A DNA stretch of 64,000 nt from an uncultured archaeon. Its GTDB lineage: Archaea > Nanobdellota > Nanobdellia > Pacearchaeales > GW2011-AR1. Shown here one piece after another: positions 9,979 to 46,870 of the stretch; the first letter of the stretch is position 1, and each line of letters begins with the position of its first letter. The position numbers and the translations under genes were made by a program. Location of the stretch: assembly GCA_902385625.1 (NCBI GenBank), contig CABMGE010000001.1:18765-82764 (forward strand), in the 5' to 3' direction. The notes beneath the pieces are model-generated. The model had not been told where the DNA came from and did no database searches. It saw only the letters and a program-made list of their open reading frames with translations.

Positions 9979-10008
9979 ATGTAAATTTATAAGATTATTT
10001 TATTAATC

Positions 10009-11419: not shown

Positions 11420-11705
11420 TTTATTTTTCCTTTAATTTAACTTGATTAGGTTAAGATTATAATATAATTAGAACTTTGTAGTTTTATTTTTGTCAAAATG
11501 ATAATATTTAAATACTATTTATCATTAATATTTAAGTATCTAGAGAATAATTTTAATATAGCAGATATAGTATATATTATCCTGGAGGACAAAAGAAAAA
11601 TGCCAAAAAAATCATATAAAAATCTCTATTTATTATCAAATTTACTTTGTAATAAAATAGCTAAATTATCTAATTTTCTAGGTGAATAGAAAATTAATTT
11701 TAAAA

Positions 11706-12683
11706 ATGCCAAAAAAATCCAAAATAATTGATGAAAAAGACAGGAAAATTTTAGAAGAGCTAGATAATAACGCAAGACAAACTGATTCTCAAATCGCAAA
11801 AAAAGTTGGACTTTCAAAACAAGTTGTTAATTATAGAATACAAAATATGATAAAAAATAAAATAATTCTTAATTTTTATACTATCCTTAATACTGGACTT
11901 TTTGGGCTTGATTCGTTTTATGTTTTTTTAAATTTAGAATATATTAATAAAGACCAGGAAAAAAAACTCCTGGAAAAAATTAATTCATTAAACTTTGTTG
12001 GATGGCTGGTTTCAGGAACTGGAAGATGGGATGTAGTTTTGTTAATTAATGCACCAAGTATTTCTGTTTTTGAAAGTTATCTTGATAAGATCAAATCAAT
12101 CTGCGGAAAACATCTTCATACCTATATTTTTACAGCCCTTGTTAATGCAGAACATATTGGATATAAAATGATTGGAGATAGGCCTTATCTAATAGGAATT
12201 AAAAGAAATGAAAGAATAAGAAAAGATGATTTAACTAAAGAAGATCTCTCAATACTAAAAGTAATCTCGCAAAATTCACGTATGCCTTTGACTGAAATTT
12301 CAGAAAAAGAAAATATTCCAGTCCACGTGGCGAGTTATAGATTAAAGTCAATGATAAAAAATAAGATAATTTCAGGGTTCAAACCTCAATTAAATGTTTC
12401 AGGATTAGGATATCAATGGCATTTGCTACTTTTGCAATTAAAAATAGTTGAAGAAAAAAGAAAAGAAGAATTCATGAAATTTTGCAAGGCCCATCCAAGA
12501 ATCTATTATATAACCAACACAATAGGAAACTATAATATAATGCTTGACATTCATGTAAATAACATAGAAGAATACAGAGAAACACTCTTGGATATTAAAG
12601 ATAAGTTTTCAGATATTATAAGGGATTATGAATCTGTAATCGTGTTTGAAGAATATAAAATTAGTTATCTGCCAGAGTTTTAA
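11706..12683 (+). CDS. tandem-duplicated Lrp/AsnC-type winged-helix regulator
   Basis: Two HTH modules: DRKILEELDNNARQTDSQIAKKVGLSKQVVNYRIQNM and LSILKVISQNSRMPLTEISEKENIPVHVASYRLKSM. ATG 11706 chosen inside ORF 11682..12683. Confidence 0.75.
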   Translation: MPKKSKIIDEKDRKILEELDNNARQTDSQIAKKVGLSKQVVNYRIQNMIKNKIILNFYTILNTGLFGLDSFYVFLNLEYINKDQEKKLLEKINSLNFVGWLVSGTGRWDVVLLINAPSISVFESYLDKIKSICGKHLHTYIFTALVNAEHIGYKMIGDRPYLIGIKRNERIRKDDLTKEDLSILKVISQNSRMPLTEISEKENIPVHVASYRLKSMIKNKIISGFKPQLNVSGLGYQWHLLLLQLKIVEEKRKEEFMKFCKAHPRIYYITNTIGNYNIMLDIHVNNIEEYRETLLDIKDKFSDIIRDYESVIVFEEYKISYLPEF

Positions 12684-24451: not shown

Positions 24452-24593
24452 AGATATATTAGCATAAATCCATATTTAAAACTTGCTTTTAAGACCTTCA
24501 TTATATCTCTCAAACCTCTGTGGTCCTTTCTTTAGAATCAGTTTATATTAAATTGTTTTTAGCATGATTCATTCATGATAAAAACAACTCTTG

Positions 24594-30805: not shown

Positions 30806-30926
30806 TTTTTTCTTTTGTATTAAATAAAATGTTTAATGTTATATGATAAAAATATAGGTTTATAAATGTTTCTATATTTTAGCAAATATTTCGGAATTAT
30901 CGAGGAGAAAAAATTATCTGAATTTT

Positions 30927-31751
30927 TTATCTGTTGATAACATAGAAAACCTCTCCTGGAATTTTTAGCACTTTAAATTTTAGATTAACTCTTTCAAGCA
31001 TAAGTTCAAATCCTTTTCTCCTCGGAAGATTCATTGGTTTCCCTGAAATTGTATTTGTTGAAAAACTTACAACAATATATTTTGTTTTGAGGCTTAGATT
31101 TTTTATAAGTTCCTCTCCGGGCTTATGATTGTTTGTATTAATCAAGTCTATAAGTTTGAACATAAATATTATATCTGATGAGGGTAAGTTCGAGATCTCT
31201 TCTAAATTTCGAACATTCAAGATCTGTGCTTTTCCATTGAGTCCTTGAGTTTTCATAATTTGAAAATAATCATTAAGAAAATTAATATCTGAGATATCAA
31301 TATCATATGAATAGTAACTCAGGGAATTAATTCCAACTTCTTTCATATAAATATATGAGACTGGATTAATGCCTGCTCCCAAATCAATTATTGTTTTGGG
31401 TTTCCCTGTTATTTCAAATATTTCTTTATAGATCTCATTATAATATTGAAGTCTTTCTTTAGTTGAAACAGCAGTCGAGAGAATTTTTTCAATTATTTCA
31501 ACATTCCCAGGACTTTTTTTCAATTCTTCAAGAAGTTTTACTCTGCGGTTCTTTTTTCCTCTTAAATAACTCGAATATAATCTGTGAAGCTTGGATCTTA
31601 TTTCTTTAACTGATTGTTTGTCTATTTTTATGACTCTATTGTTTTTCCTCAAATACTCCTTTATCTCTTCAACAATTATTTCATCTGAAAGAGTTGAATA
31701 TTTCTTGCCCTTTTTTATTTCTATCAAAAATTCATTTATCAGTTTTTCCAT
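30927..31751 (-). CDS. ArmA/Rmt (FmrO)-family 16S rRNA methyltransferase-like protein
   Basis: Collinear by-eye match to ArmA: KKYSTLSDEIIVEEI, SKLHRLYSSY, STKERLQYYNEIYKEIF, IIDLGAGINP, YYSYDID, FMFKLIDL, VVSFSTNTISGK, GEVFYVI. Confidence 0.6.
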   Translation of the reverse strand: MEKLINEFLIEIKKGKKYSTLSDEIIVEEIKEYLRKNNRVIKIDKQSVKEIRSKLHRLYSSYLRGKKNRRVKLLEELKKSPGNVEIIEKILSTAVSTKERLQYYNEIYKEIFEITGKPKTIIDLGAGINPVSYIYMKEVGINSLSYYSYDIDISDINFLNDYFQIMKTQGLNGKAQILNVRNLEEISNLPSSDIIFMFKLIDLINTNNHKPGEELIKNLSLKTKYIVVSFSTNTISGKPMNLPRRKGFELMLERVNLKFKVLKIPGEVFYVINR

Positions 31752-31797
31752 TAACTAAATAGAATTATGGAATATAAAAGTTCTTTTGTTTTTAAAA

Positions 31798-31874
31798 TTT
31801 TTAGCAAGATTTACTCTTGATAAAAATTAGCATGTATCTGATAAGATACAAATGTCATGCCCAAATGGCATTTA
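31798..31874 (+). repeat. multi-hairpin intergenic repeat, copy A
   Basis: TTTT-AGC, HP1 caaga-tttac-tcttg, AAAAAT linker, HP2 tgtatct-gata-agataca, HP3 atgcc-caaat-ggcat. Ends 3 nt before the stop of the minus-strand gene 31878..32447. Confidence 0.7.
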
Positions 31875-31877
31875 AAA

Positions 31878-32447
31878 CTAAATCCAAAAAAATTGCTGCA
31901 CCATACTTGCAACTCCGAGCCATGGTTGAGCCTGTCGAGGTGAATATGCTGATGCAATTCCAAGACCATAATCAAATGCGTTTGGAGAGTATCCATAACC
32001 TGAATAACCATAATAGTCATATCCTGGAGGATATCCATATCCATCATAACCATATCCCCCATAACTTCCATATCCATCATAGCCATAATAATTGTCATAG
32101 TATTGGTTATATCCAGCTGTTCCGCCTGTAAAATAAGGCATCGAACCTGTATTTGAAGGGTAAGATGGAGAATAATAAGCATTATAATCTACTGAGTTAG
32201 AATTTCTTGTAACACTATTGAACTGATATACTTCTGAGTTAGGTCCTCTAAATGAACTTGATGAGGAAGAACTTGGAGTTGTACTTGTTTGATATCTATA
32301 AGGATCATCACTACAATCTCCATAATAACCAGTAACTCCTCTGCAAAGTCCACTAGCTGAAACAGAACTAACTACCATTAAACTTGTTAGTATAACAACC
32401 AATGCTACGAGTGCAATACGAAGTTCCATTGATAATGTTTTTTTCAT
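31878..32447 (-). CDS. secreted Tyr/Gly-rich low-complexity protein
   Basis: Signal peptide, CRGVTGYYGDCS motif, S-run, YGYDGYGSYGGYGYDGYGYPPGYDYYGYSGYGYS. Confidence 0.65.
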   Translation of the reverse strand: MKKTLSMELRIALVALVVILTSLMVVSSVSASGLCRGVTGYYGDCSDDPYRYQTSTTPSSSSSSSFRGPNSEVYQFNSVTRNSNSVDYNAYYSPSYPSNTGSMPYFTGGTAGYNQYYDNYYGYDGYGSYGGYGYDGYGYPPGYDYYGYSGYGYSPNAFDYGLGIASAYSPRQAQPWLGVASMVQQFFWI

Positions 32448-32550
32448 ATTTTTCCTAATACTTCCAACTATTTAAATCTTTTGTTTTGTATACACCTTAT
32501 AGTAGTAACAAAATAGGCTATTAAAATAAGTTTGTGATAGATAAAAAGAA

Positions 32551-33249
32551 TTAGTTTTGTTTCTCTAGCTCTTTTGCGAGGATCTTACTTACTTTTCCTG
32601 GATTTTTCCTACAATATAATTCAATCTTGCTTGATCTATAATGCGCTTTTTCATAAGTAAACCCCTTTTTCATAAGTCTTCTTTCATGAGCTTCGTGTAA
32701 AAGAACATATTCTAGCTCTTTTGGACTTAGTGCATCATCAATCCATATTTCTCCAGGAGGTATAAAGTGATAGATCATATCATGTCCACCCTCTGTAAAA
32801 TCAATAAAAAAAAGAGAACGAACTAAAAAGCCATCTGCAACATATACCTTTATTTTTTCATTACTATATTTTTTAAGAAGTTTCCTTCGAATTTTTATTA
32901 TTATCTCAGAGTTATCCAATTTTTTAAATTTTTTAATAATGGGACTTTTATTTCTTTTATCTTTTTCAGCAATGGTTCCATGATCCCTTGCTTCTAAAAT
33001 GCTTTTTCCTCTTTTTATCCATTTGTCTCTTGTTAAAAGAAAAGTTGTAAAATATTTCCATTCTTTTGTTTTTCCAAATTCACAATCAATCCAAAACTCG
33101 TTTTTAGGTATAAAATTAAATAAGTAATTTGCTGAAAAATTTGTAAACTCTTCATCGATATTTTCGCGTATGTATTTGCCGTCAACATACCAAACATCAA
33201 ATCCTCCAATTTTTCCAATCTTTTTTATATATGGTTTTTTCATCAGCAA
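32551..33249 (-). CDS. hypothetical protein with internal tandem duplication
   Basis: FDVWYVDGKYIR...FIPKNEFWID repeated as IKVYVADGFLVR...FIPPGEIWID. Confidence 0.55.
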   Translation of the reverse strand: MLMKKPYIKKIGKIGGFDVWYVDGKYIRENIDEEFTNFSANYLFNFIPKNEFWIDCEFGKTKEWKYFTTFLLTRDKWIKRGKSILEARDHGTIAEKDKRNKSPIIKKFKKLDNSEIIIKIRRKLLKKYSNEKIKVYVADGFLVRSLFFIDFTEGGHDMIYHFIPPGEIWIDDALSPKELEYVLLHEAHERRLMKKGFTYEKAHYRSSKIELYCRKNPGKVSKILAKELEKQN

Positions 33250-33324
33250 TTAGAAAATAAATATTTACAGAATTAAATAACAACATTGGTTAATAAATTT
33301 GTTGATAGATAAAATAGAAATAAT

Positions 33325-33798
33325 CTAGTAAACATAAACTGCAACTGGTTTGGTATATCCATTTCTTGAATTTGATTCTACCTGATCTTGCACATAATAA
33401 GGATTATTTATTTCATCACAAGAATTATAATAATATCTTTCATCACAGTCATTTCTTGTAACTCTTATTATATTTCCATAATTATCTGTGTATTCTTTTT
33501 GGCAAGTTCTATAATAGTAATTATAATATTCATCGTAGCTCGGTTGATAGTTGTTATACTGTTTATAGCAAATATAAGATTCTCCGCGGCTATTTCTGCA
33601 ATAGTCAAATTTACCATAATCATAATGTCCAAAGTCAGAATAACTTCCAATGTCACCCAAATTTCTGTAAGTTATTCCACAATTACTCGAGTCAGAAGGA
33701 TAATCTCCATAAAATGTAATTGATGCAGAGATTATTCCAGCAGCAACTACTATAACTAATAAAAATGCAATAACTAATAGTCTAAAACCTTTTTTCAC
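33325..33798 (-). CDS. secreted Tyr/Asn/Cys-rich protein
   Basis: Signal/anchor LLVIAFLLVIVVAAGIISA, then Y-rich sequence with 8 Cys. Confidence 0.55.
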   Translation of the reverse strand: MKKGFRLLVIAFLLVIVVAAGIISASITFYGDYPSDSSNCGITYRNLGDIGSYSDFGHYDYGKFDYCRNSRGESYICYKQYNNYQPSYDEYYNYYYRTCQKEYTDNYGNIIRVTRNDCDERYYYNSCDEINNPYYVQDQVESNSRNGYTKPVAVYVY

Positions 33799-33852
33799 AA
33801 ATTAAAGTAAAAATACAAATATATAAGCATTATTGTTAGAAATCTATACTAA

Positions 33853-34455
33853 TTAATAACCATATCCATAACCAGAATCTCCATATCCACTATATCCACC
33901 ATAACTTCCATAACCATAACTTGGATAACCATATCCATAATCACTATATCCACTTCCATATCCATAATCTCCATAATCTGAATAACCATAATCATAAGGA
34001 GATTGTTGAGAACAATAATAGTATTGTCCATAATCATCTCTGCAATAACTTAATTGTCCAGAAAATCCATAACCATAATCATATCCATAATCTTCACCAT
34101 AACCATAACCTTGGTCATAAGCAGAATATTGTTCATTTCGATTATAGCTGCTTGATATATCATGACTATCATAGTTATAGGTGTTGTAGGTATTATAACT
34201 ATCCTGAACATTATAGCTATCTTTTGTATTGTAACTGTTTAAAGGATAATTTCCATTTTTATATGAAGAATAACTGCTAGAAGGAGCATATGCATAACCA
34301 CCTCCCCCTCCATTGTTATTACCATATAACATGCTGCAATCGTCGTAATATCCATTTGGACCCATGCAAAGTGCAGGACTTGCTGCAGAAATAAAACTAA
34401 TTAAAATAATAACTAAGAATGTTCCAAGTCCTGTTAACAGTATGCTTTTTCTCAT
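33853..34455 (-). CDS. secreted Tyr/Gly-rich low-complexity protein
   Basis: Signal peptide, CMGPNGYYDDCS motif (as in 31878..32447), long YGYG/DYGY tail. Confidence 0.65.
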   Translation of the reverse strand: MRKSILLTGLGTFLVIILISFISAASPALCMGPNGYYDDCSMLYGNNNGGGGGYAYAPSSSYSSYKNGNYPLNSYNTKDSYNVQDSYNTYNTYNYDSHDISSSYNRNEQYSAYDQGYGYGEDYGYDYGYGFSGQLSYCRDDYGQYYYCSQQSPYDYGYSDYGDYGYGSGYSDYGYGYPSYGYGSYGGYSGYGDSGYGYGY

Positions 34456-34549
34456 AGTATAAAGCTTTACCTCTTGACTTTTTTATGAATAATTTATGTC
34501 TAACTACTATTTAAGGATTAGTATAGAAAAAAATACAACTTTTAAGTAT

Positions 34550-34819
34550 CTATTTCTTCCTAAAAATTAAATATAAAATAAAAATCATAATGCAAACAAT
34601 AATATTAATTGCATAGTTGAATAATAATGGCCATCTAAATGCAGTATAAACAATATAGAATAAAGTTAAAACTTCTCCAAAAAACCACCATACAATAAAT
34701 GTTAATGAAAGACCAGAAAAATCTTTGGTCTTAAGAGTTTTGAATAATTGCGGAAGTCCACAGGTTGCAAGAAGAACTGCTCCAATCCAGCCAATTAATT
34801 CAATTGTATTTATTCCCAT
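34550..34819 (-). CDS. PQ-loop / SemiSWEET-like 3-TM transporter
   Basis: 89 aa, three TM, LPQ in TM1 (LATCGLPQLFKTLKTK). Confidence 0.6.
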   Translation of the reverse strand: MGINTIELIGWIGAVLLATCGLPQLFKTLKTKDFSGLSLTFIVWWFFGEVLTLFYIVYTAFRWPLLFNYAINIIVCIMIFILYLIFRKK

Positions 34820-34877
34820 CTTTTATTAATTCATTTAAATTTAATAAGGTTAAAAATATTTCTAAATGACTTGCTAG

Positions 34878-34988
34878 TTGTTTTTGCCTTAAGTGAATTA
34901 AGTCAAAAACAATTTTAAGCAAGATTTACTCTTGATTAAAATTGCTAACTGTCTGCCTAAGACTAATAGGTCATGCCAGCAGGCATTA
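34878..34988 (+). repeat. multi-hairpin intergenic repeat, copy B (with upstream extension hairpin)
   Basis: ttgtttttg...caaaaacaa 9-bp outer stem, then TTTTAAGC, HP1 caaga-tttac-tcttg, AAAATTGCTAACT, HP3 atgcc-agca-ggcat. Confidence 0.7.
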
Positions 34989-35099
34989 TTTAGATGTATA
35001 AAATAGACAACGTCTTATCACAACTTTATTAAACATTAAATGCCTAATAATAGTGTATATTTCATATAATGAAATATATAAAATAAATATAATAGTTAT

Positions 35100-35176
35100 T
35101 TTTAAGCTAAATTCATTTTAGATTAAAAATGCTAACTATTGCAATAACTTTATTGGGTAATGCCAGGAGGGCATTA
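35100..35176 (+). repeat. multi-hairpin intergenic repeat, copy C
   Basis: TTTTAAGC, HP1 ctaaa-ttcat-tttag, AAAAATGCTAACT, HP3 taatgcc-aggag-ggcatta; ends just before the 35179/35185 start. Confidence 0.7.
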
Positions 35177-35178
35177 AC

Positions 35179-35823
35179 TTGTATATGAGAAAATTAAATA
35201 TTGCTTCGTTTATTGTAATATTATTATCTTTTTTAATTGGAATCCTTTCTTATGGTTATTTTCCAGATAAGATGGCTACACACTGGGATGCTTTAGGACA
35301 ATGTAATGGATATATGCCAAAATTCTGGGGAACTTTTTCAATACCTCTAATATCTCTGGGTTTGTTTTTATTATTTCTTTTAATTCCGATTATAGACCCT
35401 TTAAAAAAGAACATAGAAAAATTTAGAAAATATTATGACACTTTTATTTTAATTACTCTGCTCTTTTTATTTTATGTTTATATCTTAACAATATTCTGGA
35501 ATTTTGGGATTGTATTTAACATGAATGTAGCGTTTATTCCTGCTCTTGGATTTTTGTTTTTTTATATGGGTGTAATTTTACAAAAGATAAAACGGAATTG
35601 GTTTATTGGAATAAGAACTCCCTGGACCCTTTCGAGTGAAACAGTCTGGGATAAAACTCATAAGCTAGGAAGCATTTTATTTAAGGTCTCAGGGGTAATA
35701 ACCTTGATTGGAATTTTCTTTCCAAGATACGTTCTTTGGTTTGTGTTAGGTCCTGTAGTTATAAGTGGAATTTGGCTAATTATCTATTCCTATCTAATGC
35801 ATAGAAAAGAGGAAAAAGATTAA
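35179..35823 (+). CDS. SdpI/YfhL-family membrane protein (DUF1648 + SdpI domains)
   Basis: PDKMATHWDALGQCNGYMPKFWG and RNWFIGIRTPWTLSSETVWDKTHK. TTG at 35179 lies 8 nt after AGGAGG; the first ATG is at 35185. Confidence 0.7.
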   Translation: MYMRKLNIASFIVILLSFLIGILSYGYFPDKMATHWDALGQCNGYMPKFWGTFSIPLISLGLFLLFLLIPIIDPLKKNIEKFRKYYDTFILITLLFLFYVYILTIFWNFGIVFNMNVAFIPALGFLFFYMGVILQKIKRNWFIGIRTPWTLSSETVWDKTHKLGSILFKVSGVITLIGIFFPRYVLWFVLGPVVISGIWLIIYSYLMHRKEEKD

Positions 35824-36152
35824 ACAATAACTGCATCTATTTGTTTTTCAAGCCTAAAAATTCTTTCATAAGAAAAATTCATACTAACTCCATTAATAGG
35901 ACTAGACTCATAGTTTTCTCCCTGCCAATTAAATTCAATTCCTCTTTTTGCAGGTATATATGTAGTAGCTTCATTTTCGATAAAATGTTTTACTCCTGGA
36001 ATTGTTGCAACAACAATCTTTTCTTCAAGTATTCCTTTACAATCTTGAGTACTATGATCAAATTTATACATAGTAACCCTATATAAATCAAATTCATGTC
36101 CTATAATTGAATTATCTCTAAAAACTATTTTTGGGCTATCTTCTTTTTCCAT
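35820..36152 (-). CDS. hypothetical protein
   Basis: 110-aa ORF, last gene of a three-gene minus-strand block. Confidence 0.45.
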   Translation of the reverse strand: MEKEDSPKIVFRDNSIIGHEFDLYRVTMYKFDHSTQDCKGILEEKIVVATIPGVKHFIENEATTYIPAKRGIEFNWQGENYESSPINGVSMNFSYERIFRLEKQIDAVIV

Positions 36153-36186
36153 ATTATTTTTTTACAAGTTTCCAAGTTTTTATATT

Positions 36187-36501
36187 TTATTCTGCAAGCA
36201 TAAACTCATAAACTGCTTTTGCTAAACGATGTGTTTTTCTTATTGGCTGAGGTTTTTCTTCATTAAGTTTCTGATTTAACCATTCAGGACAGCTTCTGCA
36301 ATAAGGATATTCGCAATGATTTGCAGCAAAAGCGAGTCCTTGAACAAGAATTGGTCTATTCAAAAGAGCAACACATTCTTCCATATATGCACAATCTGTT
36401 CCCCATCTACGAAATCCTCTTATTTGATTTATGTCTGCTTCGACTATTCTTGATCTTTCTTTTTCACTAATATCTCTGCCAATATATTTTGAATATGTCA
36501 T
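36187..36501 (-). CDS. hypothetical Cys-containing protein
   Basis: 104 aa; ATG 2 nt after the upstream stop. Confidence 0.45.
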   Translation of the reverse strand: MTYSKYIGRDISEKERSRIVEADINQIRGFRRWGTDCAYMEECVALLNRPILVQGLAFAANHCEYPYCRSCPEWLNQKLNEEKPQPIRKTHRLAKAVYEFMLAE

Positions 36502-36503
36502 TT

Positions 36504-37742
36504 TTAATTTTGTGCTCTTGAAAGCATATCATCAACAAATTTACCTGTTGCCATTTTCATTATTCCTTTTGGAACAATAAGGCAAGGTGGACGATCATAT
36601 CCCCTTCTTTCAAGTAAATCATAAATTTTGTTTCTCCAGATGCTTTTTTCACCATATCCATCTAAATTTGGAATTTCAGTAGATTCATGATTTTGAGAAA
36701 CTCCAACTTTTAATCCTTCCATCATCATTATTTCTTCTGCTTCTCCAAGTAAAAAATGTCCCCCATCCATTAGAATTGCATCAATTTGTCCTGTTCCACA
36801 AACTTCAAGACAATCACAAATATTAAACGTAGAAAAAATATTAGTTCCTTCATACCCTCCTATTTCTGAAAGTTCTTTTGCAACCTTTTCACCAAGTAAA
36901 TCAATAGTTCCAAATCTATCTTGAAATGGATCTCCAAAATCTTCTACAACAAGAACATTATATTTTTTTGAAGAATTATTCCCTGGAACTGTAAATGGAC
37001 GTAAAAAATCAATTTTTTCAATTAAAGGAACTGATCTATCAAGATATAGTTTTCTTCTAAATGCAAATCTTTTTATTTCATCTGCTTCAAGTTCTGAATG
37101 TTTGAGCATATTTTGCCCGTATTGTTCTGAAACTTTTTCAAGTTCTTCATTTAAGATAAAATCAAGAGTTTCTGTATCCCCTCGGTACATAGCCTCTCTT
37201 ATATTTTCACTTTTACAAAGTATTGGTGGAAGATTAATTCCTCTTTCCTTTAAAGAACACATTATTGCAAGGTAAACTGATCTAAAATAGCTATCATCTC
37301 CTTTTAATGATTCAAGAGTATAAGATTCATAATCCATAAAAGCAGGAGATTCTACATCCATTCCTTTAATTTCTTTAAGTAAAAATGCAGTTCTTATTCT
37401 ATGAATTGATTTTGAATCTTCGACTAATGCTTCTTCTGAATATGATTCCGAAGAACTATAGCTATTTCTGCTTATAACTTTACCATCTCCATTTACAAGT
37501 TTATTTCCTGCATTATCAACGCCCCAAAAAGTGTCTCCCATATAAGATTCTTTTTTTAAAATTTGCCATAAATTTACTTTATATTCATCACCAAAATTAA
37601 GATGACAATCAAATCTAATCTCCGGAGTAATTACTCCATTAAATCCTTCTAATCTTTGAAACAAAGTAATAGGTTTTCCAATTACTGCAGAGAGAACTTG
37701 CAGGTTTGCATTTAATTTTTCTTCAAGTGTTTGTTCTTCCAT
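36504..37742 (-). CDS. hypothetical protein with possible receiver-like C-terminal region
   Basis: 412 aa. VLVVEDFGD ... IDAILMDG is reminiscent of the CheY beta1/beta3 strands; otherwise unrecognised. Confidence 0.5.
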   Translation of the reverse strand: MEEQTLEEKLNANLQVLSAVIGKPITLFQRLEGFNGVITPEIRFDCHLNFGDEYKVNLWQILKKESYMGDTFWGVDNAGNKLVNGDGKVISRNSYSSSESYSEEALVEDSKSIHRIRTAFLLKEIKGMDVESPAFMDYESYTLESLKGDDSYFRSVYLAIMCSLKERGINLPPILCKSENIREAMYRGDTETLDFILNEELEKVSEQYGQNMLKHSELEADEIKRFAFRRKLYLDRSVPLIEKIDFLRPFTVPGNNSSKKYNVLVVEDFGDPFQDRFGTIDLLGEKVAKELSEIGGYEGTNIFSTFNICDCLEVCGTGQIDAILMDGGHFLLGEAEEIMMMEGLKVGVSQNHESTEIPNLDGYGEKSIWRNKIYDLLERRGYDRPPCLIVPKGIMKMATGKFVDDMLSRAQN

Positions 37743-37833
37743 TTATATTAATATTCTGAAATTTCAATAAATAGTTTGATATAGGGAGGGTATATAAATG
37801 TTTTTATATTTGTAACTAGTAAGTAGTTATAAA

Positions 37834-38484
37834 TTAGTGAAATATTCTTTCAATTAAATTATAATTTATTTCAGAAAAATTATTTATAACTAAATCAGCA
37901 TTGCAAACATCCTCAAATTCATTATGTCCGTTAACATATCCAATTGATTTCATTCTACCTCTTCTCGCAGCTTCTATTCCACTGGCAGCATCTTCAATTA
38001 CAACGCATTTTTCAGGTTCAAATTTTAATTTTTCTGCTGCTTTTAAAAAAACATCTGGACTCGGTTTATGCAACTCCACATCATTTGCAGAAATGACAAC
38101 TGGAAAATATTTTGTGAGATCCAAATAATCGAGAATAATGTCTGCCCTGAATTTTTGAGAAGAAGTGCCTACTGCAAGCTGAACCTCTTTAGAATTCAAA
38201 TCATCAAGAAGTTTTACAAGTCCGCGATCAGGTTTCATTGATTTTAAAAATTTAAGTTCAAGATCCCATATTTCCTCCCTAAATGATTCTAATTCCAGAT
38301 TAAGGCCATATGTCAAGTTCCAGTCCACTATAACATCCTTAAAAGACCTTCCAACATATTTTTTTATATCTTCTTCAGATAAATGAACTCCTTGTCTTCC
38401 AAGAATTTTATTCGCCGAATCCCAAATCATTTCATAAGAGTCTACTAAAACTCCATCCATATCAAATATGACTGAATATTCCAT
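37834..38484 (-). CDS. HAD-superfamily hydrolase (beta-phosphoglucomutase-like)
   Basis: VIFDMDGVLVDS, VGTSS, IEDAASGIEAA. Confidence 0.8.
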   Translation of the reverse strand: MEYSVIFDMDGVLVDSYEMIWDSANKILGRQGVHLSEEDIKKYVGRSFKDVIVDWNLTYGLNLELESFREEIWDLELKFLKSMKPDRGLVKLLDDLNSKEVQLAVGTSSQKFRADIILDYLDLTKYFPVVISANDVELHKPSPDVFLKAAEKLKFEPEKCVVIEDAASGIEAARRGRMKSIGYVNGHNEFEDVCNADLVINNFSEINYNLIERIFH

Positions 38485-38543
38485 TATTTTTAATTAAAAA
38501 ATACTTATTTAAATTATTATGCAATGAAAAATAATATTATAAT

Positions 38544-38957
38544 TCACCACATATGTTCCAAATGAAATTCTTTTAATTCAGGCACTGATTTTTCATTTAA
38601 TTCCAAGGGCGAGCCTGTAATAATCCCTCGAGGATCATAGACAATTGTTGCCCTTGAAAAATCAATATTAACCCTATTAATATATCTTGCAGGAACATGC
38701 CACATTCTTCTTACAAATTCAGTTTCAGGCAAACCTGAAACTCTAATAATAATATCTCTTGGCATATCGTATGCACTATTAACTCCTTCTTTCCAACCTC
38801 CCACATCAACGGTTTTTTTAATATATAGAAATCTAAATCCTCCTTCTTTTTCTAAGCCAAGTTCAACCCATTCTCTTTCACTAAAAACAAATCCATTTTC
38901 TTTATAATTTCTATATTCAGGTAAACCAATGCCTCTATAAAAATTTAAATTATCCAT
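38544..38957 (-). CDS. hypothetical protein
   Basis: 137-aa ORF, no motif recognised. Confidence 0.45.
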   Translation of the reverse strand: MDNLNFYRGIGLPEYRNYKENGFVFSEREWVELGLEKEGGFRFLYIKKTVDVGGWKEGVNSAYDMPRDIIIRVSGLPETEFVRRMWHVPARYINRVNIDFSRATIVYDPRGIITGSPLELNEKSVPELKEFHLEHMW

Positions 38958-38997
38958 TTAGAGATATTAAAACAAACAGTTTAAAAATATTTGGACC

Positions 38998-41196: not shown

Positions 41197-41382
41197 TTTA
41201 TTTTTTATATTTCTTTCTTAATGCGAGTATTATAGAAGTTGCAAAAACAACTTAATAATTTAAGATAAATAATGATATAAAACACGCTTTAAAAACCTTA
41301 CTAAAACTTTGCGAGGATTAGTTGACTAATTTAGGAGTTTAGCACCGAATACATTTATATATCCTAAAATATATATTTAACT

Positions 41383-41565
41383 ATGGCAAAAAAAGAGACA
41401 AGAAATGAAAAGAAAAAAAGCCCAGGTGGACTATTTGTTCCAGCAGGAGTTCTAATTGGTCTAGGTTTAGGATTCTTAATGAACAATGTTACAGCCTATT
41501 TGTTTTTAGGACTTGGAGCAGGATTTTTGGTCTGGGCAATTTACGAAATAGCAAGGAAAAAATAA
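41383..41565 (+). CDS. small membrane protein
   Basis: 60 aa, basic N-terminus plus two hydrophobic segments. Confidence 0.4.
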   Translation: MAKKETRNEKKKSPGGLFVPAGVLIGLGLGFLMNNVTAYLFLGLGAGFLVWAIYEIARKK

Positions 41566-41592
41566 ATTTATTTTTTATTTATTTCTTTATCT

Positions 41593-41844
41593 TCATCTAT
41601 AAATAACCGTCTGCAATAATAGGATATACCAAAGCGTAGCAGAAGCAAGTGTTGCAACTGTTGAAAAATATAAATTAAGAGTAAGAAATGTTACAGCAAG
41701 TACATAAAGGCCTAAAAATGTAATCATCGGAGTTTGGATTGTCATGAGTTTCTTTTTGATTTTAAATCCATGATATATTTGTGGAATTAATGCAAATATG
41801 AAAAGCGCATTTACAATCGGAATTACTAAATCTTGCCATACCAT
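41593..41844 (-). CDS. PQ-loop-like 3-TM membrane protein
   Basis: 83 aa, ALIPQIYHGFKIKK in TM1. Confidence 0.45.
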   Translation of the reverse strand: MVWQDLVIPIVNALFIFALIPQIYHGFKIKKKLMTIQTPMITFLGLYVLAVTFLTLNLYFSTVATLASATLWYILLLQTVIYR

Positions 41845-41967
41845 TACAAAGATTAGAACTTAAAATACTTTAATTTCTGTGGTGGCGAGAGACACCTCTG
41901 TTATTTATATATTACATAGTCTAAATTCTTATATAGGATTCTAAACTATTAGGTAGGTTATAAAAAA

Positions 41968-43422
41968 ATGGTAAAAAAAAGAATTCCTCAGGGAACTTTT
42001 GATAATGATTTTTTAAAAGGCACAGTTAGAAATTACCCTTCTTTAGAATGTTTAACTCAGCATCAAAGAGAAGAATTAGATAAAAGAATAACACACCTTA
42101 TAGACTTTGAGAGTACTGCCAAGGTTCCATTTCAGGTAGTTGATTATATTTCAAAGTGGATATCCTCAAAACCTGAGTTTGAAGAAAGACATATTTCAGA
42201 TGATCCTGAAAAAGACAGGAAAAGAAAATATTTTTTTAAAGACCCCTGGGGAGGAGGAAGTATGGCAATTGTTCGAGAAGGAAATGAAAATTCAAATAGT
42301 TCAATATCAAAGGGTTTTAACTTAATAATTTGTCATTCTGATTCACCATGTCTCAGACTAAAACCCAGACCAATAAAACTTGAATGGGATCCTGAGCAAA
42401 GGTACAATTTTTTAGGAGTAAGGCTATCTGCAATTGCCCAAGGAGGTCTTTCAGTTCATCAATGGTTAGGACAGCCAGTAAAAATCATAGGTTATAAAGA
42501 ATCCAGGGATGGAGGAAGAAGACTAATTGAAATACCGGGTTTTGTTCCAGATACTTCAGCCCATATTGATTATCGAGGAGAGCAAGAAGTAAATGAGGCA
42601 TTTCCTCCTGAAAAGTCTTTGGAAATAATAACAGGCCATACAGGCCAGGAAGAAACTTTAAAAAAATTCGGATTCAAATCTCCTGATGATTTTGCACAAT
42701 CCAAGTTTTTTGCTGTTCCAATAAATAATCCAACTCCAATTGATGAATATAGCTGGAGGCTGCTTGCAGGATATGGTCATGATGACCGGTCTTGTATTTA
42801 TTCAGCTGTTGATGCAATTGTAAAAACAAGAGATCCAAAAAGAACTTCAATTTTATTAATTACTGATAGAGAAGAACTAGGGGATGATGCTCCATCAGGA
42901 GCGCAAGGTCCTTTTTTTGACAGGGTTTTAGACTATATCCTCGAAAAAGAAGAACACGATAAAGATACAGAATTTTCAGAAAAAGACAGAAGAAGAATAT
43001 TATACGAGTCGTGTATGTTAATCGGAGATGTCAGTATTGCTCCCTCAGGTCATGATTACGAGCAAATGGATGTTTCTAATTCTCCTAAACTCGGATTTGG
43101 AGTATACATTGCAGCCGATGATTCCTCTTCTTCAAATACTGGATTTATCTCAAAATTAAAATATCTTGCACAAAGAGGTTCATCCAGAGGATATAATCTG
43201 TATCATCAGATATCTGGAACGTTTTATAATCAAGACAAAGAAGAAGTCTGGTTCAGGTCTCCAGAAGGTAAAGATAGCTTATATAATCGAATTGGTCAAT
43301 GGACTTGGGTAGGAATTCCTTGTGCATCTGCACATAGTCCAAGTGAAATTATTTGTCCGGCAGATGAACTCTGGACATCAAAACTCTACAGAAGATTTTT
43401 AGAATCAGATCTAAGCATGTAA
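41968..43422 (+). CDS. M18-family (aspartyl) aminopeptidase-like protein
   Basis: ICHSDSPCLRLKP, GYGHDDRSC, ITDREELGDDAPSGAQG. Confidence 0.65.
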   Translation: MVKKRIPQGTFDNDFLKGTVRNYPSLECLTQHQREELDKRITHLIDFESTAKVPFQVVDYISKWISSKPEFEERHISDDPEKDRKRKYFFKDPWGGGSMAIVREGNENSNSSISKGFNLIICHSDSPCLRLKPRPIKLEWDPEQRYNFLGVRLSAIAQGGLSVHQWLGQPVKIIGYKESRDGGRRLIEIPGFVPDTSAHIDYRGEQEVNEAFPPEKSLEIITGHTGQEETLKKFGFKSPDDFAQSKFFAVPINNPTPIDEYSWRLLAGYGHDDRSCIYSAVDAIVKTRDPKRTSILLITDREELGDDAPSGAQGPFFDRVLDYILEKEEHDKDTEFSEKDRRRILYESCMLIGDVSIAPSGHDYEQMDVSNSPKLGFGVYIAADDSSSSNTGFISKLKYLAQRGSSRGYNLYHQISGTFYNQDKEEVWFRSPEGKDSLYNRIGQWTWVGIPCASAHSPSEIICPADELWTSKLYRRFLESDLSM

Positions 43423-43509
43423 TTAGAGATAAAAAAATGAAATGTGAAATAATTAAAATTGCAAAATGTCCAAGGACAACTAATAAACAGAGCGAATTAA
43501 TAATCTAAA

Positions 43510-44277: not shown

Positions 44278-44305
44278 ATAAAAATATTTATTGTTTTAAT
44301 ATATC

Positions 44306-45469: not shown

Positions 45470-45471
45470 TT

Positions 45472-45525
45472 ATTTTATCTTAAGTAAACGTGTGAAGCAC
45501 ATGGTTCATGTCCTACAGGGCATTA
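45472..45525 (+). repeat. multi-hairpin repeat, copy E (5'-shortened)
   Basis: gtgtgaagcaca, HP3 atgtc-ctacag-ggcat (one G-U), TTACCCAGG; about 85 percent identical to the 3' half of copy D. Confidence 0.6.
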
Positions 45526-45571
45526 CCCAGGATACTTATTTTATCTAAAGTGAATTCATATAAAATAATAT

Positions 45572-45645
45572 TTTTAAGCTAAATTTACTTTAGCTAAAAA
45601 TTACATCATGTGTGAAGCACAGGGTTCATGTTCCTCAGAACATTA
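45572..45645 (+). repeat. multi-hairpin repeat, copy D
   Basis: TTTTAAGC, HP1 gctaaa-tttac-tttagc, AAAAATTAC, tgtg-aag-caca, HP3 atgtt-cctcag-aacat; overlaps the stop codon of 45643..46059. Confidence 0.7.
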
Positions 45646-46059
45646 CCCAAGATATTTTGGAATTATTTGCTCTTTATATTCTTTAACCGTTAAAACCTCA
45701 AGACCATCTCTGTCTCCTGTTATAAGTCCTGGAAATTCATATAATCTATAGCGTGTTGAATAGTCTTCTTTCTCAAGTAAAAAATCAAAAATTTTATATC
45801 TTTCATCACTATTCTCGAGAATAGTTTTGGACTTATCTGAAATTTCCTCTTCAGTTAGCTTCCATTCAATAGATGAGTTTGGAATGAGTGGAGCAATAAT
45901 AAATATTTTATCTTGTCTTCCAAAATAAAAAGACTTGCATCCATTAAATTTTAATCTTAGTTCAGATTTATACAAATCTTCGAGTGCTTTTTCAGAAGAA
46001 ATCATGTAGTCCCTGGACTGGTAGTTTCCTACAATTTTATATCTGAATCTTTCTTCCAT
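45643..46059 (-). CDS. hypothetical protein
   Basis: 138-aa ORF. Confidence 0.45.
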   Translation of the reverse strand: MEERFRYKIVGNYQSRDYMISSEKALEDLYKSELRLKFNGCKSFYFGRQDKIFIIAPLIPNSSIEWKLTEEEISDKSKTILENSDERYKIFDFLLEKEDYSTRYRLYEFPGLITGDRDGLEVLTVKEYKEQIIPKYLG

Positions 46060-46146
46060 TATTTTAATATAAACGTTTAATTATTAATTTATTGGGGCGA
46101 ACAATAACACCACAATTATACTTAAGAATATTTGGTTGAATTAAAT

Positions 46147-46605: not shown

Positions 46606-46630
46606 TTAGTTATAGAAATATAATAATTGA

Positions 46631-46852
46631 CTAAACTATCTTATTAACAAGATAAATTAGTTCAAGTGTGCTTACTGTAGAAGACAATACAACATATGAA
46701 GTATAATCTATTTCATTAAGCATAAATTCTCTGTTTGATATTTCATTTGCTAGAGCTCTTTCCAGATTTTTTTTCGATTCTTCACTCACTTTAAGAAAAG
46801 CATTAATTGGCCCGTATATTGGAACTAAAAAATCTGTAATACTTCTCTTCAT
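46631..46852 (-). CDS. hypothetical small protein
   Basis: 73-aa ORF directly downstream of S7. Confidence 0.35.
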   Translation of the reverse strand: MKRSITDFLVPIYGPINAFLKVSEESKKNLERALANEISNREFMLNEIDYTSYVVLSSTVSTLELIYLVNKIV

Positions 46853-46870
46853 ATTAAAAATATTTGAAAA

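What the first reader, a model, noticed from the sequence alone, without database searches (positions are those of the whole stretch)
31798..31874. Family of multi-hairpin intergenic repeats with compensatory stem changes (copy A; family definition)
Five clear copies share one architecture. The copies are A 31798-31874, B 34913-34988, C 35100-35176, D 45572-45645 and E 45472-45525. The architecture is TTTTAAGC, then hairpin 1 (5-6 bp stem, loop TTTAC or TTCAT), an A-rich linker AAAAWT, a variable small hairpin 2, and hairpin 3 (ATGYY N4-6 RRCAT followed by TA). The stems differ in sequence but keep their pairing. HP1 is caaga/tcttg in A and B, ctaaa/tttag in C and gctaaa/tttagc in D. HP3 is atgcc/ggcat in A-C, atgtt/aacat in D and atgtc/ggcat (one G-U) in E. 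In A, B, D and E the residues flanking the HP3 stem form the same C-U mismatch (tCATG...CATt). The G-U pairs in B and E exist only on the plus-strand reading, which weakly favours a plus-strand RNA. On the minus strand, however, A and D begin right at the stop codons of 31878..32447 and 45643..46059, so a 3'-UTR or terminator role is equally possible. I do not recognise this as a known RNA or MITE family.
Basis: seen in the sequence. Interest (0 to 1): 0.7.

Follow-up and report, generated by a model that had tools for sequence, protein, structure and literature searches.

The report
Hairpin repeat family in DPANN archaeon
The reported copies are real members of a larger family of about 85-base, multi-hairpin, non-coding repeats scattered between genes of a tiny Pacearchaeota archaeon and its relatives; they most likely behave like the small "selfish" palindromic repeats of bacteria (REP/MITE-like), a kind I could not find described for these archaea.

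Summary
The window comes from a Pacearchaeota (DPANN) archaeon with 31% GC. It carries at least 10 copies of the core hairpin (HP1) at five intergenic loci. These are A-E as reported, plus F 24553-24587, G 34878-34912, H 45535-45569 and J 11614-11701.

HP1 is a 33-37 nt imperfect palindrome. It has a T-rich 5' arm, one purine-purine mismatch, a covarying inner stem, a TTYAY loop and an A-rich 3' arm. A conserved linker (R)CTAWC follows, then subtype-specific hairpins. Units are often paired head-to-head.

Covariation is strong: 95% of cells paired, 71 double changes, and 0 of 500 shuffles reaching the observed value. A metagenome pattern scan gave 21 of 125 hits with a fully complementary unconstrained triplet, where about 2-3 are expected.

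No Rfam family matches, and no transposase or recurrent neighbouring gene was found.

Copies are missing at orthologous sites in relatives. J is absent from a close relative and is flanked by a perfect 18-bp duplication. Orientation relative to neighbouring genes looks random.

Best reading (about 0.45): a non-autonomous, structure-dependent intergenic repeat that proliferates like REP/BIME or MITE elements. The small-RNA-gene and transcript-boundary readings remain open. It is a new variant of a known kind, of moderate interest.

The parts
11614..11701 (+). Copy J, a full unit. HP1 is 11626-11660 (loop TTTAC at 11641-11645), the linker CTAAATTATCTAA is 11661-11673, and the tail hairpin TTTTCTA GGTGAA TAGAAAA is 11674-11693.
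   Evidence: Model R2 scores it 28.6 bits, E = 0.004, with filters off. The sequence was read. The DNA fold has z = -3.4. The unit is absent from the alignable upstream region of the orthologous Lrp gene in relative L162.
11596..11613 (+). Left copy of the perfect 18-bp direct repeat AAAAATGCCAAAAAAATC that flanks J. It keeps the Shine-Dalgarno GGAGG and an ATG.
   Evidence: the repeat finder. The 18-nt length was never reached in Markov shuffles.
11702..11719 (+). Right copy of the 18-bp direct repeat. It holds the real start codon (11706) of the Lrp/AsnC gene.
   Evidence: Orthologs start MPKKSK...
24553..24587 (+). Copy F, HP1 only: TTGTTTTTA-G-CATGA TTCAT TCATG-A-TAAAAACAA. It lies 6 nt after the stop codon of the DnaG gene on the minus strand.
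   Evidence: 52.2 bits. Fold z = -3.5 with RNA parameters and -5.2 with DNA parameters. It is absent after DnaG in relatives of 66-86% identity.
31796..31874 (+). Copy A. HP1 is 31796-31828, HP2 is 31833-31850, and HP3 is 31857-31871. It lies between the GY-rich gene's stop codon (31878) and the FmrO gene's own TATA box.
   Evidence: 52.7 bits.
34878..34912 (-). Copy G: an HP1 in opposite orientation (loop TTCAC on the minus strand, A.G mismatch), head-to-head with B. Its linker ACTAGC points towards the PQ-loop gene start at 34819.
   Evidence: (43.4 bits).
34910..34988 (+). Copy B: HP1 34910-34944, linker GCTAAC, HP2 GTCT..AGAC, HP3 ATGCC AGCA GGCAT.
   Evidence: 57 bits. The G/B pair is about 85% conserved in metagenome loci L130 and L080, where the flanking genes differ. 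Similarity stops right after GGCATTATYT.
35098..35176 (+). Copy C: HP1 35098-35130, linker GCTAAC, HP2 CAATAA CTT TATTG, HP3 ATGCC AGGAG GGCAT. It ends 9 nt before the SdpI gene's ATG at 35185.
   Evidence: 50.9 bits. It is absent upstream of SdpI orthologs.
45489..45534 (+). Piece E: a tail-only copy (HP2 + HP3), 83% identical to D's tail. It can also be read as the tail of H on the minus strand. It is flanked by the 24-nt direct repeats 45465-45488 and 45531-45554 (88% identical).
45535..45569 (-). Copy H: a degenerate HP1 in opposite orientation (loop TTCAC on the minus strand), head-to-head with D.
   Evidence: (41.1 bits).
45570..45657 (+). Copy D: HP1 45570-45601, HP2 GTGTG AAG CACA, HP3 GGGT..ATGTTC CTCA GAACAT..ACCC. 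The stop codon of the minus-strand gene 45643-46059 overlaps its end.
   Evidence: 49.5 bits.

Best explanation
These are copies of a non-coding, non-autonomous, structure-dependent intergenic repeat of Pacearchaeota-type DPANN archaea. They are the functional analogue of bacterial REP/BIME (REPIN), BOX or MITE elements.

The unit is about 80-90 bp. Its core, HP1, is a 33-37 nt imperfect palindrome with these parts:
- a T-rich 5' arm and an A-rich 3' arm;
- one purine-purine mismatch or small internal loop about 5-6 bp from the loop;
- a freely covarying inner stem;
- an almost invariant pentaloop TTYAY.

HP1 is followed by a conserved single-stranded linker (R)CTAWC(T). After that come one or two hairpins that differ between subfamilies.

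Proposed mechanism. HP1, folded on the strand that carries TTYAY in single-stranded nucleic acid, is the handle recognised by a trans-acting enzyme that is not encoded in this window. New copies are placed in A/T-rich intergenic DNA, often at the T-rich foot of a resident HP1, which produces the head-to-head dimers. Insertion sometimes leaves a duplication of the target.

Once in place, a copy is co-transcribed with neighbouring genes. It supplies stable hairpins, and a T5-6 run on each strand, at gene ends.

What is shown: the family itself, its structure and covariation, strand-consistent asymmetry, patchy non-syntenic distribution, one filled-versus-empty site, and boundary duplications.

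What is inferred: mobility as the cause, the single-stranded form, the enzyme, and any effect on transcripts.
For: Family and structure:
- There are 10 HP1s at 5 loci in the window.
- About 30 further units were found in metagenome contigs of 25-31% GC, next to archaeal housekeeping genes such as thermosome, SRP54, diphthamide synthase and KaiC.
- Across 39 HP1s, 95% of cells are paired, with 71 double-change cells. None of 500 shuffles reached this, and slid controls gave 34-62%.
- The 18 partner HP1s were not selected by my search pattern. They still show loop TTTAC/TTCAC, 82% pairing of the inner stem and 23 double changes, again 0 of 500 shuffles.
- Mismatches in these partners are purine-purine 20 times and pyrimidine-pyrimidine 5 times.
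- The tails are structured, with mean z = -2.2.

Independence from genes:
- Units occur in divergent, convergent and tandem gene contexts, with about 45% facing a gene start and 55% facing a gene end.
- FmrO and p153 have their own canonical TATA boxes between HP1 and the ATG.

Patchiness:
- No copy was found in 510 kb of EF-2-syntenic DNA from 36 related genomes.
- None lies upstream of SdpI orthologs or after DnaG orthologs.
- None lies after the PDDEXK ortholog, where the intergenic gap is only 12 nt.
- The 84%-identity relative L165 carries a head-to-head pair at a different locus.

Unit behaviour:
- The B/G dimer is about 85% conserved in L130 and L080 with unrelated flanks and a sharp right boundary.

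Insertion signatures:
- J is missing from the otherwise alignable upstream region of L162 (protein 87% identical) and is flanked by a perfect 18-bp repeat.
- The 87-bp L155 unit is flanked by the 11-bp repeat AAAAATAGATA, whose left copy is part of the partner HP1.
- The L137 pair is flanked by an 11-bp repeat and the L103 pair by a 10-bp repeat.
- Flanking repeats of at least 11 nt occur in 8 of 29 units, against 6.8% in shuffles (P about 5e-4).

Lack of strong constraint: between strain variants L165 and L166 the pair carries 8 uncompensated substitutions in 140 nt, while the 65 nt to its left carry none.

Recurrent CGAAG and CGAAAG hairpin loops, together with stronger z-scores under DNA folding parameters, are compatible with a single-stranded DNA form.
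Against: - No transposase, recombinase or reverse transcriptase was found in any window ORF of at least 120 aa. None was recurrent next to copies on 23 other contigs.
- There are no terminal inverted repeats and no conserved flanking tetranucleotide.
- The flanking duplications vary in length (10, 11, 11, 18 and about 24 bp), are absent around A, B, C and F, and are partly AT-rich low-complexity sequence.
- The J locus is more complicated than a clean insertion. About 146 extra nt, including a second copy of the gene start, separate it from the L162 state.
- Copies within one genome are very divergent and mosaic, with compensatory changes. This means long-term selection on structure, which would equally fit a functional RNA.
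- No base-level empty site could be shown for any copy other than J.
Confidence: 0.45

Rival explanations
1. They are genes for a family of small structured RNAs of about 50-90 nt. Each RNA consists of HP1, the linker and the tail hairpins, transcribed on the TTYAY strand.

In head-to-head pairs, the T-rich distal arm of each HP1 reads TTTTTATC on the other strand, which resembles this genome's TTTATATC TATA box. It would then act as the TATA box for the partner, so the two RNAs would be transcribed divergently from reciprocal promoters. The conserved loop and linker would be the interaction sites.
For: - Stems covary while the loop TTYAY and the linker (R)CTAWC stay conserved.
- Purine-purine mismatches and tandem G.A motifs sit on one strand.
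- Units are placed independently of neighbouring genes.
- The B/G dimer is conserved as a unit in three genomes.
- Pair spacing is tight, at 0-4 nt. This puts the partner's T-run about 26-31 nt upstream of the HP1 start, which is the archaeal TATA-to-start distance (established knowledge). The genome's canonical TATA box was seen.
Against: - There is no Rfam match.
- Solo copies have no TATA-like box at a constant distance upstream.
- Folding energies and G.T versus A.C counts show no strand preference.
- Copies are not kept at orthologous loci in relatives of 84-92% identity.
- The L165/L166 pair accumulates uncompensated stem changes faster than its flanks.
- HP1-only (F) and tail-only (E) fragments exist.
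- Flanking duplications are present.
Confidence: 0.2
2. They are host cis-acting transcript-boundary elements.

The T5-6 run at the start of HP1 on either strand would be the archaeal oligo-T termination signal. In a dimer, each hairpin is followed by the partner's T-run. The hairpins would block exonucleases and insulate neighbouring transcription units, acting as 3'-UTR stabilisers or bidirectional terminators.
For: - A, D and F begin 0-6 nt after the stop codons of minus-strand genes. A and F sit exactly between an upstream stop codon and the next gene's own TATA box.
- H and D lie between convergent genes.
- The T-run in the 5' arm and the A-run in the 3' arm are the most conserved parts of HP1 and are never swapped.
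- Archaeal RNA polymerase terminates at oligo-T tracts (established knowledge).
- REP elements in bacteria have such roles (PMC3733652, read).
Against: - G, B and C (three units) and the L070 pair lie between divergently transcribed genes, where nothing needs terminating.
- In a solo unit the T-run comes before the hairpin in both directions, so the covarying hairpin would not be in the terminated RNA.
- The bacterial-type terminator scan calls only C's HP3.
- Orthologous gene ends in relatives lack the element.
- The model explains neither the conserved asymmetric loop and linker nor the flanking duplications.
Confidence: 0.2
3. They are double-stranded DNA sites, either palindromic operators or promoter modules.

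The 5' arm TTTTTAAG would be a TATA-like box that places the transcription start at the linker. Alternatively, the palindrome is bound by a dimeric regulator or a chromatin protein.
For: - C, G, L070, L103, L125, L146b, L155p and L060 sit 85-113 nt upstream of a same-sense start codon.
- The HP1 arms are TATA-like.
- The linker begins with a purine after a pyrimidine, at the distance expected for a transcription start.
Against: - Four different inner stems coexist in one genome, each perfectly self-complementary. A protein reading double-stranded DNA would not require this.
- More than half of the copies face gene 3' ends.
- The genome's real promoters use TTTATA(A/T)A at -25 to -40 from the ATG and are present independently next to A and F.
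- The central loop is asymmetric and conserved.
Confidence: 0.07

Closest known systems
REP / BIME / REPIN elements of bacteria (repetitive extragenic palindromes mobilised by RAYT tyrosine transposases)
   Same: - Both are short imperfect palindromes (HP1 is 33-37 nt) in many extragenic copies.
- Mismatches near the loop are kept.
- Different types pair in inverted, head-to-head orientation, like the Y/Z REPs in BIMEs and like REPIN doublets.
- Copies often abut stop codons.
- Distribution between strains and species is patchy.
- They probably act as single-stranded hairpins.
The REP features are taken from PMC3733652 and PMC2817692 (abstract).
   Different: - There is no GTAG or CGTC tag at an end.
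- No RAYT or IS200-like gene was seen.
- The host is an archaeon.
- The unit is composite: HP1, a conserved linker and one or two further hairpins, about 85 bp in all.
- The stem is A/T-rich rather than G+C-rich.
- Some copies carry 10-18 bp flanking duplications, which REPs do not make.
BOX, ERIC/IRU and Correia-type modular structured repeats, and MITEs in general
   Same: - They are small (under 200 bp), non-coding and intergenic.
- They are modular or mosaic, as in boxA-B-C.
- They form stable hairpins when transcribed.
- Copies are dispersed regardless of gene orientation.
- Some show target duplications.
   Different: - No terminal inverted repeats were detected.
- Duplication length is variable rather than fixed.
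- Copies within one genome are far more divergent than typical MITE copies and show compensatory stem changes.
- No parent insertion sequence is known.
IS200/IS605-derived hairpin elements (PATE) and integron attC sites
   Same: In both, the structure of an imperfect hairpin with fixed irregularities is conserved rather than its sequence. Both act as folded single strands with strand specificity.
   Different: - PATE elements carry both end hairpins on the same strand, insert 3' of a fixed tetranucleotide and make no duplication.
- attC sites are single hairpins of 55-141 nt with RYYYAAC/GTTRRRY cores, arranged in cassette arrays next to an integrase.
- None of these features is present here.

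Membership tests
Any Rfam 15 RNA family | A covariance-model match at the gathering score, or at least a suggestive E-value | tested here: not met
   Over the whole window at gathering score, only two tRNAs were found. With the E <= 10 threshold over 31700-35300 and 45300-45800, only noise hits of 14-20 bits appeared, far below the gathering scores.
REP / BIME / REPIN | Short (20-40 nt) imperfect palindrome, multi-copy and extragenic | tested here: met
   HP1 is 33-37 nt. There are 10 copies at 5 intergenic loci in 64 kb.
REP / BIME / REPIN | Conserved GTAG (or CGTC) tetranucleotide at one end of the palindrome | tested here: not met
   The alignment of 39 HP1s shows ends of the form (A/T)TTTTTAGC ... 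GATAAAAA(T/A). No GTAG or CGTC is present.
REP / BIME / REPIN | Dimers or clusters in alternating orientation | tested here: met
   Head-to-head pairs G/B and H/D occur in the window. At least 13 metagenome loci and L165 also carry pairs.
REP / BIME / REPIN | A cognate RAYT (IS200/IS605-like Y1 transposase) in the genome, flanked by REPs | tested here: inconclusive
   No Y1_Tnp or other transposase was found among the window ORFs. None was recurrent among 108 ORFs on 23 element-bearing contigs. Whole genomes could not be searched.
MITE | Terminal inverted repeats matching those of an autonomous IS | tested here: not met
   I compared the ends of the units delimited by direct repeats (J, L155) and of A-D by eye. 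Only weak resemblance of the TTTT(T)A-type was seen, and the outer ends of pairs are unrelated.
MITE | Target-site duplication of fixed length | tested here: inconclusive
   Boundary direct repeats of 18 (J), 11 (L155), 11 (L137), 10 (L103) and about 24 nt (E) were found. None surrounds A, B, C or F. They are enriched over shuffles (8 of 29 against 6.8% at 11 nt or more), but the length is not fixed.
MITE | Small, non-coding, with presence/absence polymorphism between related genomes | tested here: met
   Units are about 80-90 bp. J is absent in L162. Other copies are absent at orthologous gene ends, and L165 has a pair at another locus.
IS200/IS605-type hairpin ends (PATE) | Two subterminal hairpins on the same strand, a conserved target tetra- or pentanucleotide at the left flank, and no duplication | tested here: not met
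   Paired HP1s are on opposite strands. The left flanks share no motif. Some copies have duplications.
Integron attC | A 55-141 nt single imperfect hairpin bounded by RYYYAAC ... GTTRRRY, in cassette arrays with intI | tested here: not met
   HP1 is 33-37 nt and its arm ends read TTGTT...AACAA or AATTTTT...AAAAATT, which is the wrong order and sequence. There is no integrase and no cassette array (Pfam calls).
Bacterial-type intrinsic terminator | A G+C-rich hairpin followed directly by a T-run | tested here: not met
   The scan calls only C's HP3 (35158-35176) and none of the HP1s. In HP1 the T-run precedes the hairpin and an A-run follows it.
Archaeal oligo-T terminator | A run of at least 5 T on the coding strand downstream of a gene | tested here: inconclusive
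   T5-6 runs occur on both strands of most HP1s. However, three units lie between divergent gene starts. No 3'-end data are available.
K-turn / box C/D, tRNA-like, guide-RNA scaffold (sgRNA or omega-RNA) | The respective motifs: a C/D box or 3-nt bulge plus tandem G.A; a cloverleaf; or an adjacent effector gene with a variable guide | tested here: not met
   - No C/D boxes are present. The tandem G.A pairs sit in symmetric 2x2 loops without a bulge.
- ARAGORN and Rfam find only two tRNAs.
- No Cas9, IscB or TnpB is encoded in the window or near other copies (Pfam calls).

The most novel reading that the evidence does not exclude
The family may be a previously unknown kind of mobile element of DPANN archaea that is recognised through a folded hairpin and inserts with long target duplications of variable length (10-24 bp).

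Such duplications are the signature of target-primed copying. One candidate would be SINE-like retroposition by one of the reverse transcriptases that, to my knowledge, are common in these lineages. Another would be an unknown single-strand DNA enzyme. Classical DDE or Y1 transposition would not give this pattern.

An equally novel alternative is an abundant class of divergently transcribed small RNAs with reciprocal promoters.
Probability: 0.12. Interest if true: 0.8.

Novelty: new variant of a known kind. Interest (0 to 1): 0.55.

Why it matters
DPANN archaea have tiny, gene-dense genomes and are known almost only from metagenomes. Their non-coding DNA is essentially uncharted.

A widespread, structurally constrained repeat family would have three uses:
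1. It would give a marker of genome plasticity. The copies sit in the variable stretches that interrupt the otherwise conserved S12-S7-EF-2-EF-1a gene cluster.
2. It points to an unidentified hairpin-recognising activity, whether a transposase, a recombinase, a reverse transcriptase or an RNA-binding protein.
3. It offers a ready-made covariance model for annotating these elements, which may also break metagenome assemblies; one related contig ends at the edge of such a variable stretch.

If the elements turn out to be RNAs or transcript-boundary signals, they would be among the first cis or trans RNA elements defined for Pacearchaeota.

Tried and rejected
- **Rfam.** Searched at gathering score and at E <= 10. 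Nothing was found.
- **tRNA-like or split tRNA.** ARAGORN finds only two ordinary tRNAs. The HP1 loop does not fit an anticodon loop or a T-loop.
- **K-turn or C/D box.** The tandem G.A pairs are in symmetric loops and there are no boxes.
- **sgRNA or omega-RNA scaffold.** HP1 resembles a GTTTTAG..CTAAAAT repeat:anti-repeat duplex. I dropped the idea because there is no effector gene, copies are dispersed, and head-to-head pairs leave no room for a guide.
- **Integron attC.** The size and the core sites are wrong.
- **Classical MITE.** No terminal inverted repeats.
- **Promoter or 5'-leader reading.** About 45% of copies precede a same-sense gene, but the rest face gene ends, and the neighbouring genes have their own TATA boxes.
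- **3'-UTR or terminator reading.** It fails for G, B and C.
- **Strand assignment.** MFE comparison and G.T versus A.C counts gave no signal.
- **Link to viruses.** Three IMG/VR pattern scans were run. One gave no hits and one gave 44 hits that all lack an upstream HP1. The first gave five hits; the only family-like one (L041, identical to L087) lies inside an ORF on L087.
- **Conserved neighbouring protein.** 108 ORFs from 23 element-bearing contigs gave no family with more than 2 members and no transposase among those listed.
- **att-type repeats.** None bounds the 5.7-kb insertion at 41.2-46.9 kb.
- **Extending beyond the window.** Four look-ups of window proteins to fetch more of the source contig found no record. 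Two earlier look-ups of the SdpI protein also failed.
- **Base-level empty sites for F, G/B/C and E/H/D.** The closest relatives (73-86% protein identity) have different neighbours or unalignable flanks.
- **** was an empty script, run by mistake.
Full report
**Source and setting.** The window has 31% GC. It encodes archaeal RNA polymerase subunits, S12, S7, EF-2 and EF-1a. Its EF-2 is 92% identical to that of a Candidatus Pacearchaeota MAG. Its DnaG is identical to an NCBI 'uncultured archaeon' protein on a 100.7-kb contig. It is therefore chromosomal DNA of a DPANN (Pacearchaeota/Nanoarchaeia) archaeon.

**Checking the observation.**
- A-D each fold into three hairpins. Energies lie well beyond dinucleotide shuffles, with z = -2.3 to -4.9 using RNA parameters and -5.1 to -6.7 using DNA parameters.
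- The 'TTTTAAGC' lead and the 'A-rich linker' pair with each other. Hairpin 1 (HP1) is therefore a 13-14 bp stem with a single mismatch 6 bp from a 5-nt loop.
- Copy A begins TTTTTAGC. The octamer TTTTAAGC by itself is not enriched.
- E lacks HP1.
- A mechanical scan for long hairpins found about 11 in 64 kb, and six of them are HP1s.
- Covariance models then gave the full list: J 11614-11701, F 24553-24587, A, G 34878-34912 (opposite orientation, abutting B), B, C, H 45535-45569 (opposite orientation, abutting D), D, and the tail-only piece E.

**The family outside the window.** I scanned metagenome contigs with a pattern that fixed only the outer stem and the loop and left three inner-stem positions free on each side.
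- In 21 of them the free triplets were perfectly complementary, where 2-3 are expected (P = 9e-16 to 4e-12).
- Most of these come from contigs of 25-31% GC with archaeal housekeeping genes.
- They share further features that the pattern did not ask for: a linker (R)CTAAC(T) or CTATCT after HP1, then a small hairpin GTnn..nnAC, then an 8-bp hairpin.
- The 8-bp hairpin is subtype-specific. The forms seen are CATGCC..GGCATTA as in the window; AAGTTTGA..TCAAACTT; a hairpin with a symmetric tandem G.A loop, TAATC-GA-GACAC..GTGTC-GA-GATTA; and GGCGAAGCC-type mini-hairpins.

**Head-to-head pairing.** In at least 13 metagenome loci a second unit lies head-to-head with the first. The HP1s are 0-4 nt apart and the tails point outward, exactly as in G/B and H/D.
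- These partner HP1s were found only by adjacency, so they are an unbiased sample.
- All have loop TTTAC, TTCAC or TTTAA, and a covarying inner stem (82% paired, 23 double-change cells, 0 of 500 shuffles).
- All have an irregularity at a fixed distance from the loop. It is purine-purine in 20 cases and pyrimidine-pyrimidine in 5.
- Over all 39 HP1s, 95% of cells pair, with 71 double-change cells. Slid controls gave 34-62%.

The structure is thus under selection, and the two strands are not equivalent. Two other tests gave no strand signal: G.T versus A.C counts (6 against 5) and tail folding energies (forward more stable in 24 of 42). The nucleic acid that folds (RNA or ssDNA) cannot be told from sequence. 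The recurrent CGAAG and CGAAAG loops and the stronger z-scores under DNA parameters are only hints towards DNA.

**What it is not.**
- No Rfam family matches, even at E <= 10.
- There is no tRNA-like fold, and there are no C/D boxes or K-turn bulges.
- No attC core sites are present, and the bacterial-type terminator scan calls only C's HP3.
- No transposase, recombinase, reverse transcriptase or RNA-guided nuclease is encoded by any window ORF of at least 120 aa.
- 108 ORFs from 23 other element-bearing contigs share no recurrent family.
- Three pattern scans of IMG/VR gave no convincing copy in viral contigs.

**Relation to genes.** Units fill intergenic DNA irrespective of gene orientation.
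- A and F lie between tandem minus-strand genes and start 3-6 nt after a stop codon.
- H, D and E lie between convergent genes.
- G, B and C lie between divergent gene starts.
- Over the metagenome set, about 45% of units face a same-sense start codon 85-113 nt away, and about 55% face the 3' end of a convergent gene.
- The genome's real promoters are canonical TTTATA(A/T)A boxes 25-40 nt before the ATG. They are present independently next to A (FmrO) and F (p153).

Neither a pure promoter/5'-leader model nor a pure 3'-UTR/terminator model covers the data.

**Distribution among relatives.**
- Neither model finds a copy in 510 kb around EF-2 from 36 related genomes. A simple hairpin scan finds at most one doubtful case.
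- SdpI orthologs lack copy C.
- DnaG orthologs of 66-86% identity lack F.
- The PDDEXK ortholog in L211 is followed by a 12-nt spacer instead of E/H/D.
- Yet the 84%-identity relative L165 has a typical head-to-head pair at another locus, between a Glug-repeat protein and an AP endonuclease.
- The G/B dimer recurs at about 85% identity in L130 and L080, between unrelated genes. Similarity ends sharply after GGCATTATYT.

**Insertion signatures.** Copy J sits in the upstream region of an Lrp/AsnC gene.
- The relative L162 (protein 87% identical, same gene order) aligns well over about 130 nt of that upstream region but has no J.
- In the window J is bracketed by a perfect 18-bp direct repeat that contains the gene's start codon.
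- The locus is not a textbook insertion. About 146 extra nt are present, including a second copy of the Shine-Dalgarno sequence and start region.

Elsewhere, similar repeats bracket whole units.
- The 87-bp L155 unit is bracketed by the 11-bp repeat AAAAATAGATA. Its left copy is part of the partner's HP1. This suggests that dimers arise by insertion at the foot of a resident HP1.
- The L137 and L103 pairs are bracketed by repeats of 11 and 10 bp.
- E is bracketed by a 24-nt repeat.
- Flanking repeats of at least 11 nt occur in 8 of 29 units, against 6.8% in Markov shuffles (P about 5e-4). A, B, C and F have none.
- Between strain variants L165 and L166 the pair carries 8 uncompensated substitutions in 140 nt, while the 65 nt to its left carry none. 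This argues against strong purifying selection on that copy.

**Interpretation.** The combination of features best fits a non-autonomous repeat that proliferates through recognition of a folded hairpin. Those features are:
- short imperfect palindromes with fixed irregularities and a conserved loop;
- mosaic units and head-to-head dimers of different types;
- placement independent of genes and patchy, non-syntenic distribution;
- a filled-versus-empty site and boundary duplications.

This is how bacterial REP/BIME/REPIN elements and some MITE-like repeats behave (REP features from PMC3733652).

It is not a member of those families. It lacks the GTAG/CGTC tag, a RAYT, terminal inverted repeats and a fixed duplication length. 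I put this reading at about 0.45.

The strong, long-lived structural constraint would equally suit a family of small RNAs, possibly transcribed divergently from reciprocal TATA-like arms in the dimers (0.2). It would also suit host transcript-boundary elements that exploit the T5-6 runs on both strands (0.2). A double-stranded DNA operator or promoter module is unlikely, because four different self-complementary inner stems coexist in one genome (0.07).

**Verdict.** It is not a described RNA family. It is a new variant of a known kind, the structured intergenic repeat, here in DPANN archaea, and its mechanism is unresolved. Interest is moderate (0.55). It would rise sharply if the variable long duplications prove to reflect a new hairpin-guided or RNA-mediated mobility mechanism, or if the units prove to be expressed RNAs.

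Noticed in passing
window 57008-57025 (minus strand), abutting tRNA-Lys 56932-57008: The tRNA-Lys gene is directly preceded by a 7-bp hairpin, ATGCTCC GAAT GGAGCAT. It has the same ATGC..GCAT style as HP3 of copies A-C. The sequence upstream (ACTAGTTGT) resembles the family's linker. No HP1 is present, and neither model scores the region.
   Followed up: partly
window 31878-32447 (-) and 33853-34455 (-): Two ORFs encode Gly/Tyr-rich low-complexity repeats (GYGYPPGYDYYGY-like). They have no Pfam hit and no homolog in the 36 related loci. They lie in the variable stretch between copies A and G.
   Followed up: no
window 48795-52352 (-): RNA polymerase subunit A is one 1185-aa ORF carrying Rpb1 domains 1-5. 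It is not split into A' and A'' as in most archaea (the comparison rests on my own knowledge).
   Followed up: no
window 41197-46870 and 30806-38997: The conserved S12-S7-EF-2-EF-1a cluster is interrupted twice.
- A 5.7-kb stretch (M18 peptidase, Band7, PD-(D/E)XK nuclease and small ORFs) lies between S7 and EF-2.
- An 8-kb stretch lies between EF-2 and EF-1a.

In L001, S7 abuts EF-2. L211 shares M18 and the nuclease. Of the repeat copies, A-E, G and H lie in these two variable stretches; F and J lie elsewhere in the window.
   Followed up: partly
window 11585-11689: The Shine-Dalgarno sequence (GGAGG) and the first five codons of the Lrp/AsnC gene are duplicated upstream of element J. This creates a 29-codon ORF that runs into J. 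The real gene starts at 11706.
   Followed up: yes
window 44306-45469 (+): The PD-(D/E)XK nuclease is 387 aa, against 401-418 aa in its closest orthologs, and it loses similarity after residue 363. Its stop codon lies inside the 24-nt direct repeat that flanks E. The repeat cluster may therefore have remodelled the gene's 3' end.
   Followed up: partly
window 9985-10016 and 35054-35080: Two other long A/T-rich palindromes are present. One is a perfect 13-bp stem just after the RNase HII stop codon. The other is a 12-bp stem between copies B and C. Neither scores with the HP1 model.
   Followed up: no
window 30927-31751 (-), compared with L165 4551-5369: The FmrO methyltransferase gene is co-oriented with EF-1a here but divergent from it in relative L165. 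Copy A sits at that junction.
   Followed up: no
window 35158-35176: The loop of C's HP3 contains AGGAGG, 14 nt before the SdpI start codon. C's HP2 contains a TATA-like CTTTATTG at -44 to -37. The unit may therefore have been co-opted into this gene's expression signals.
   Followed up: no
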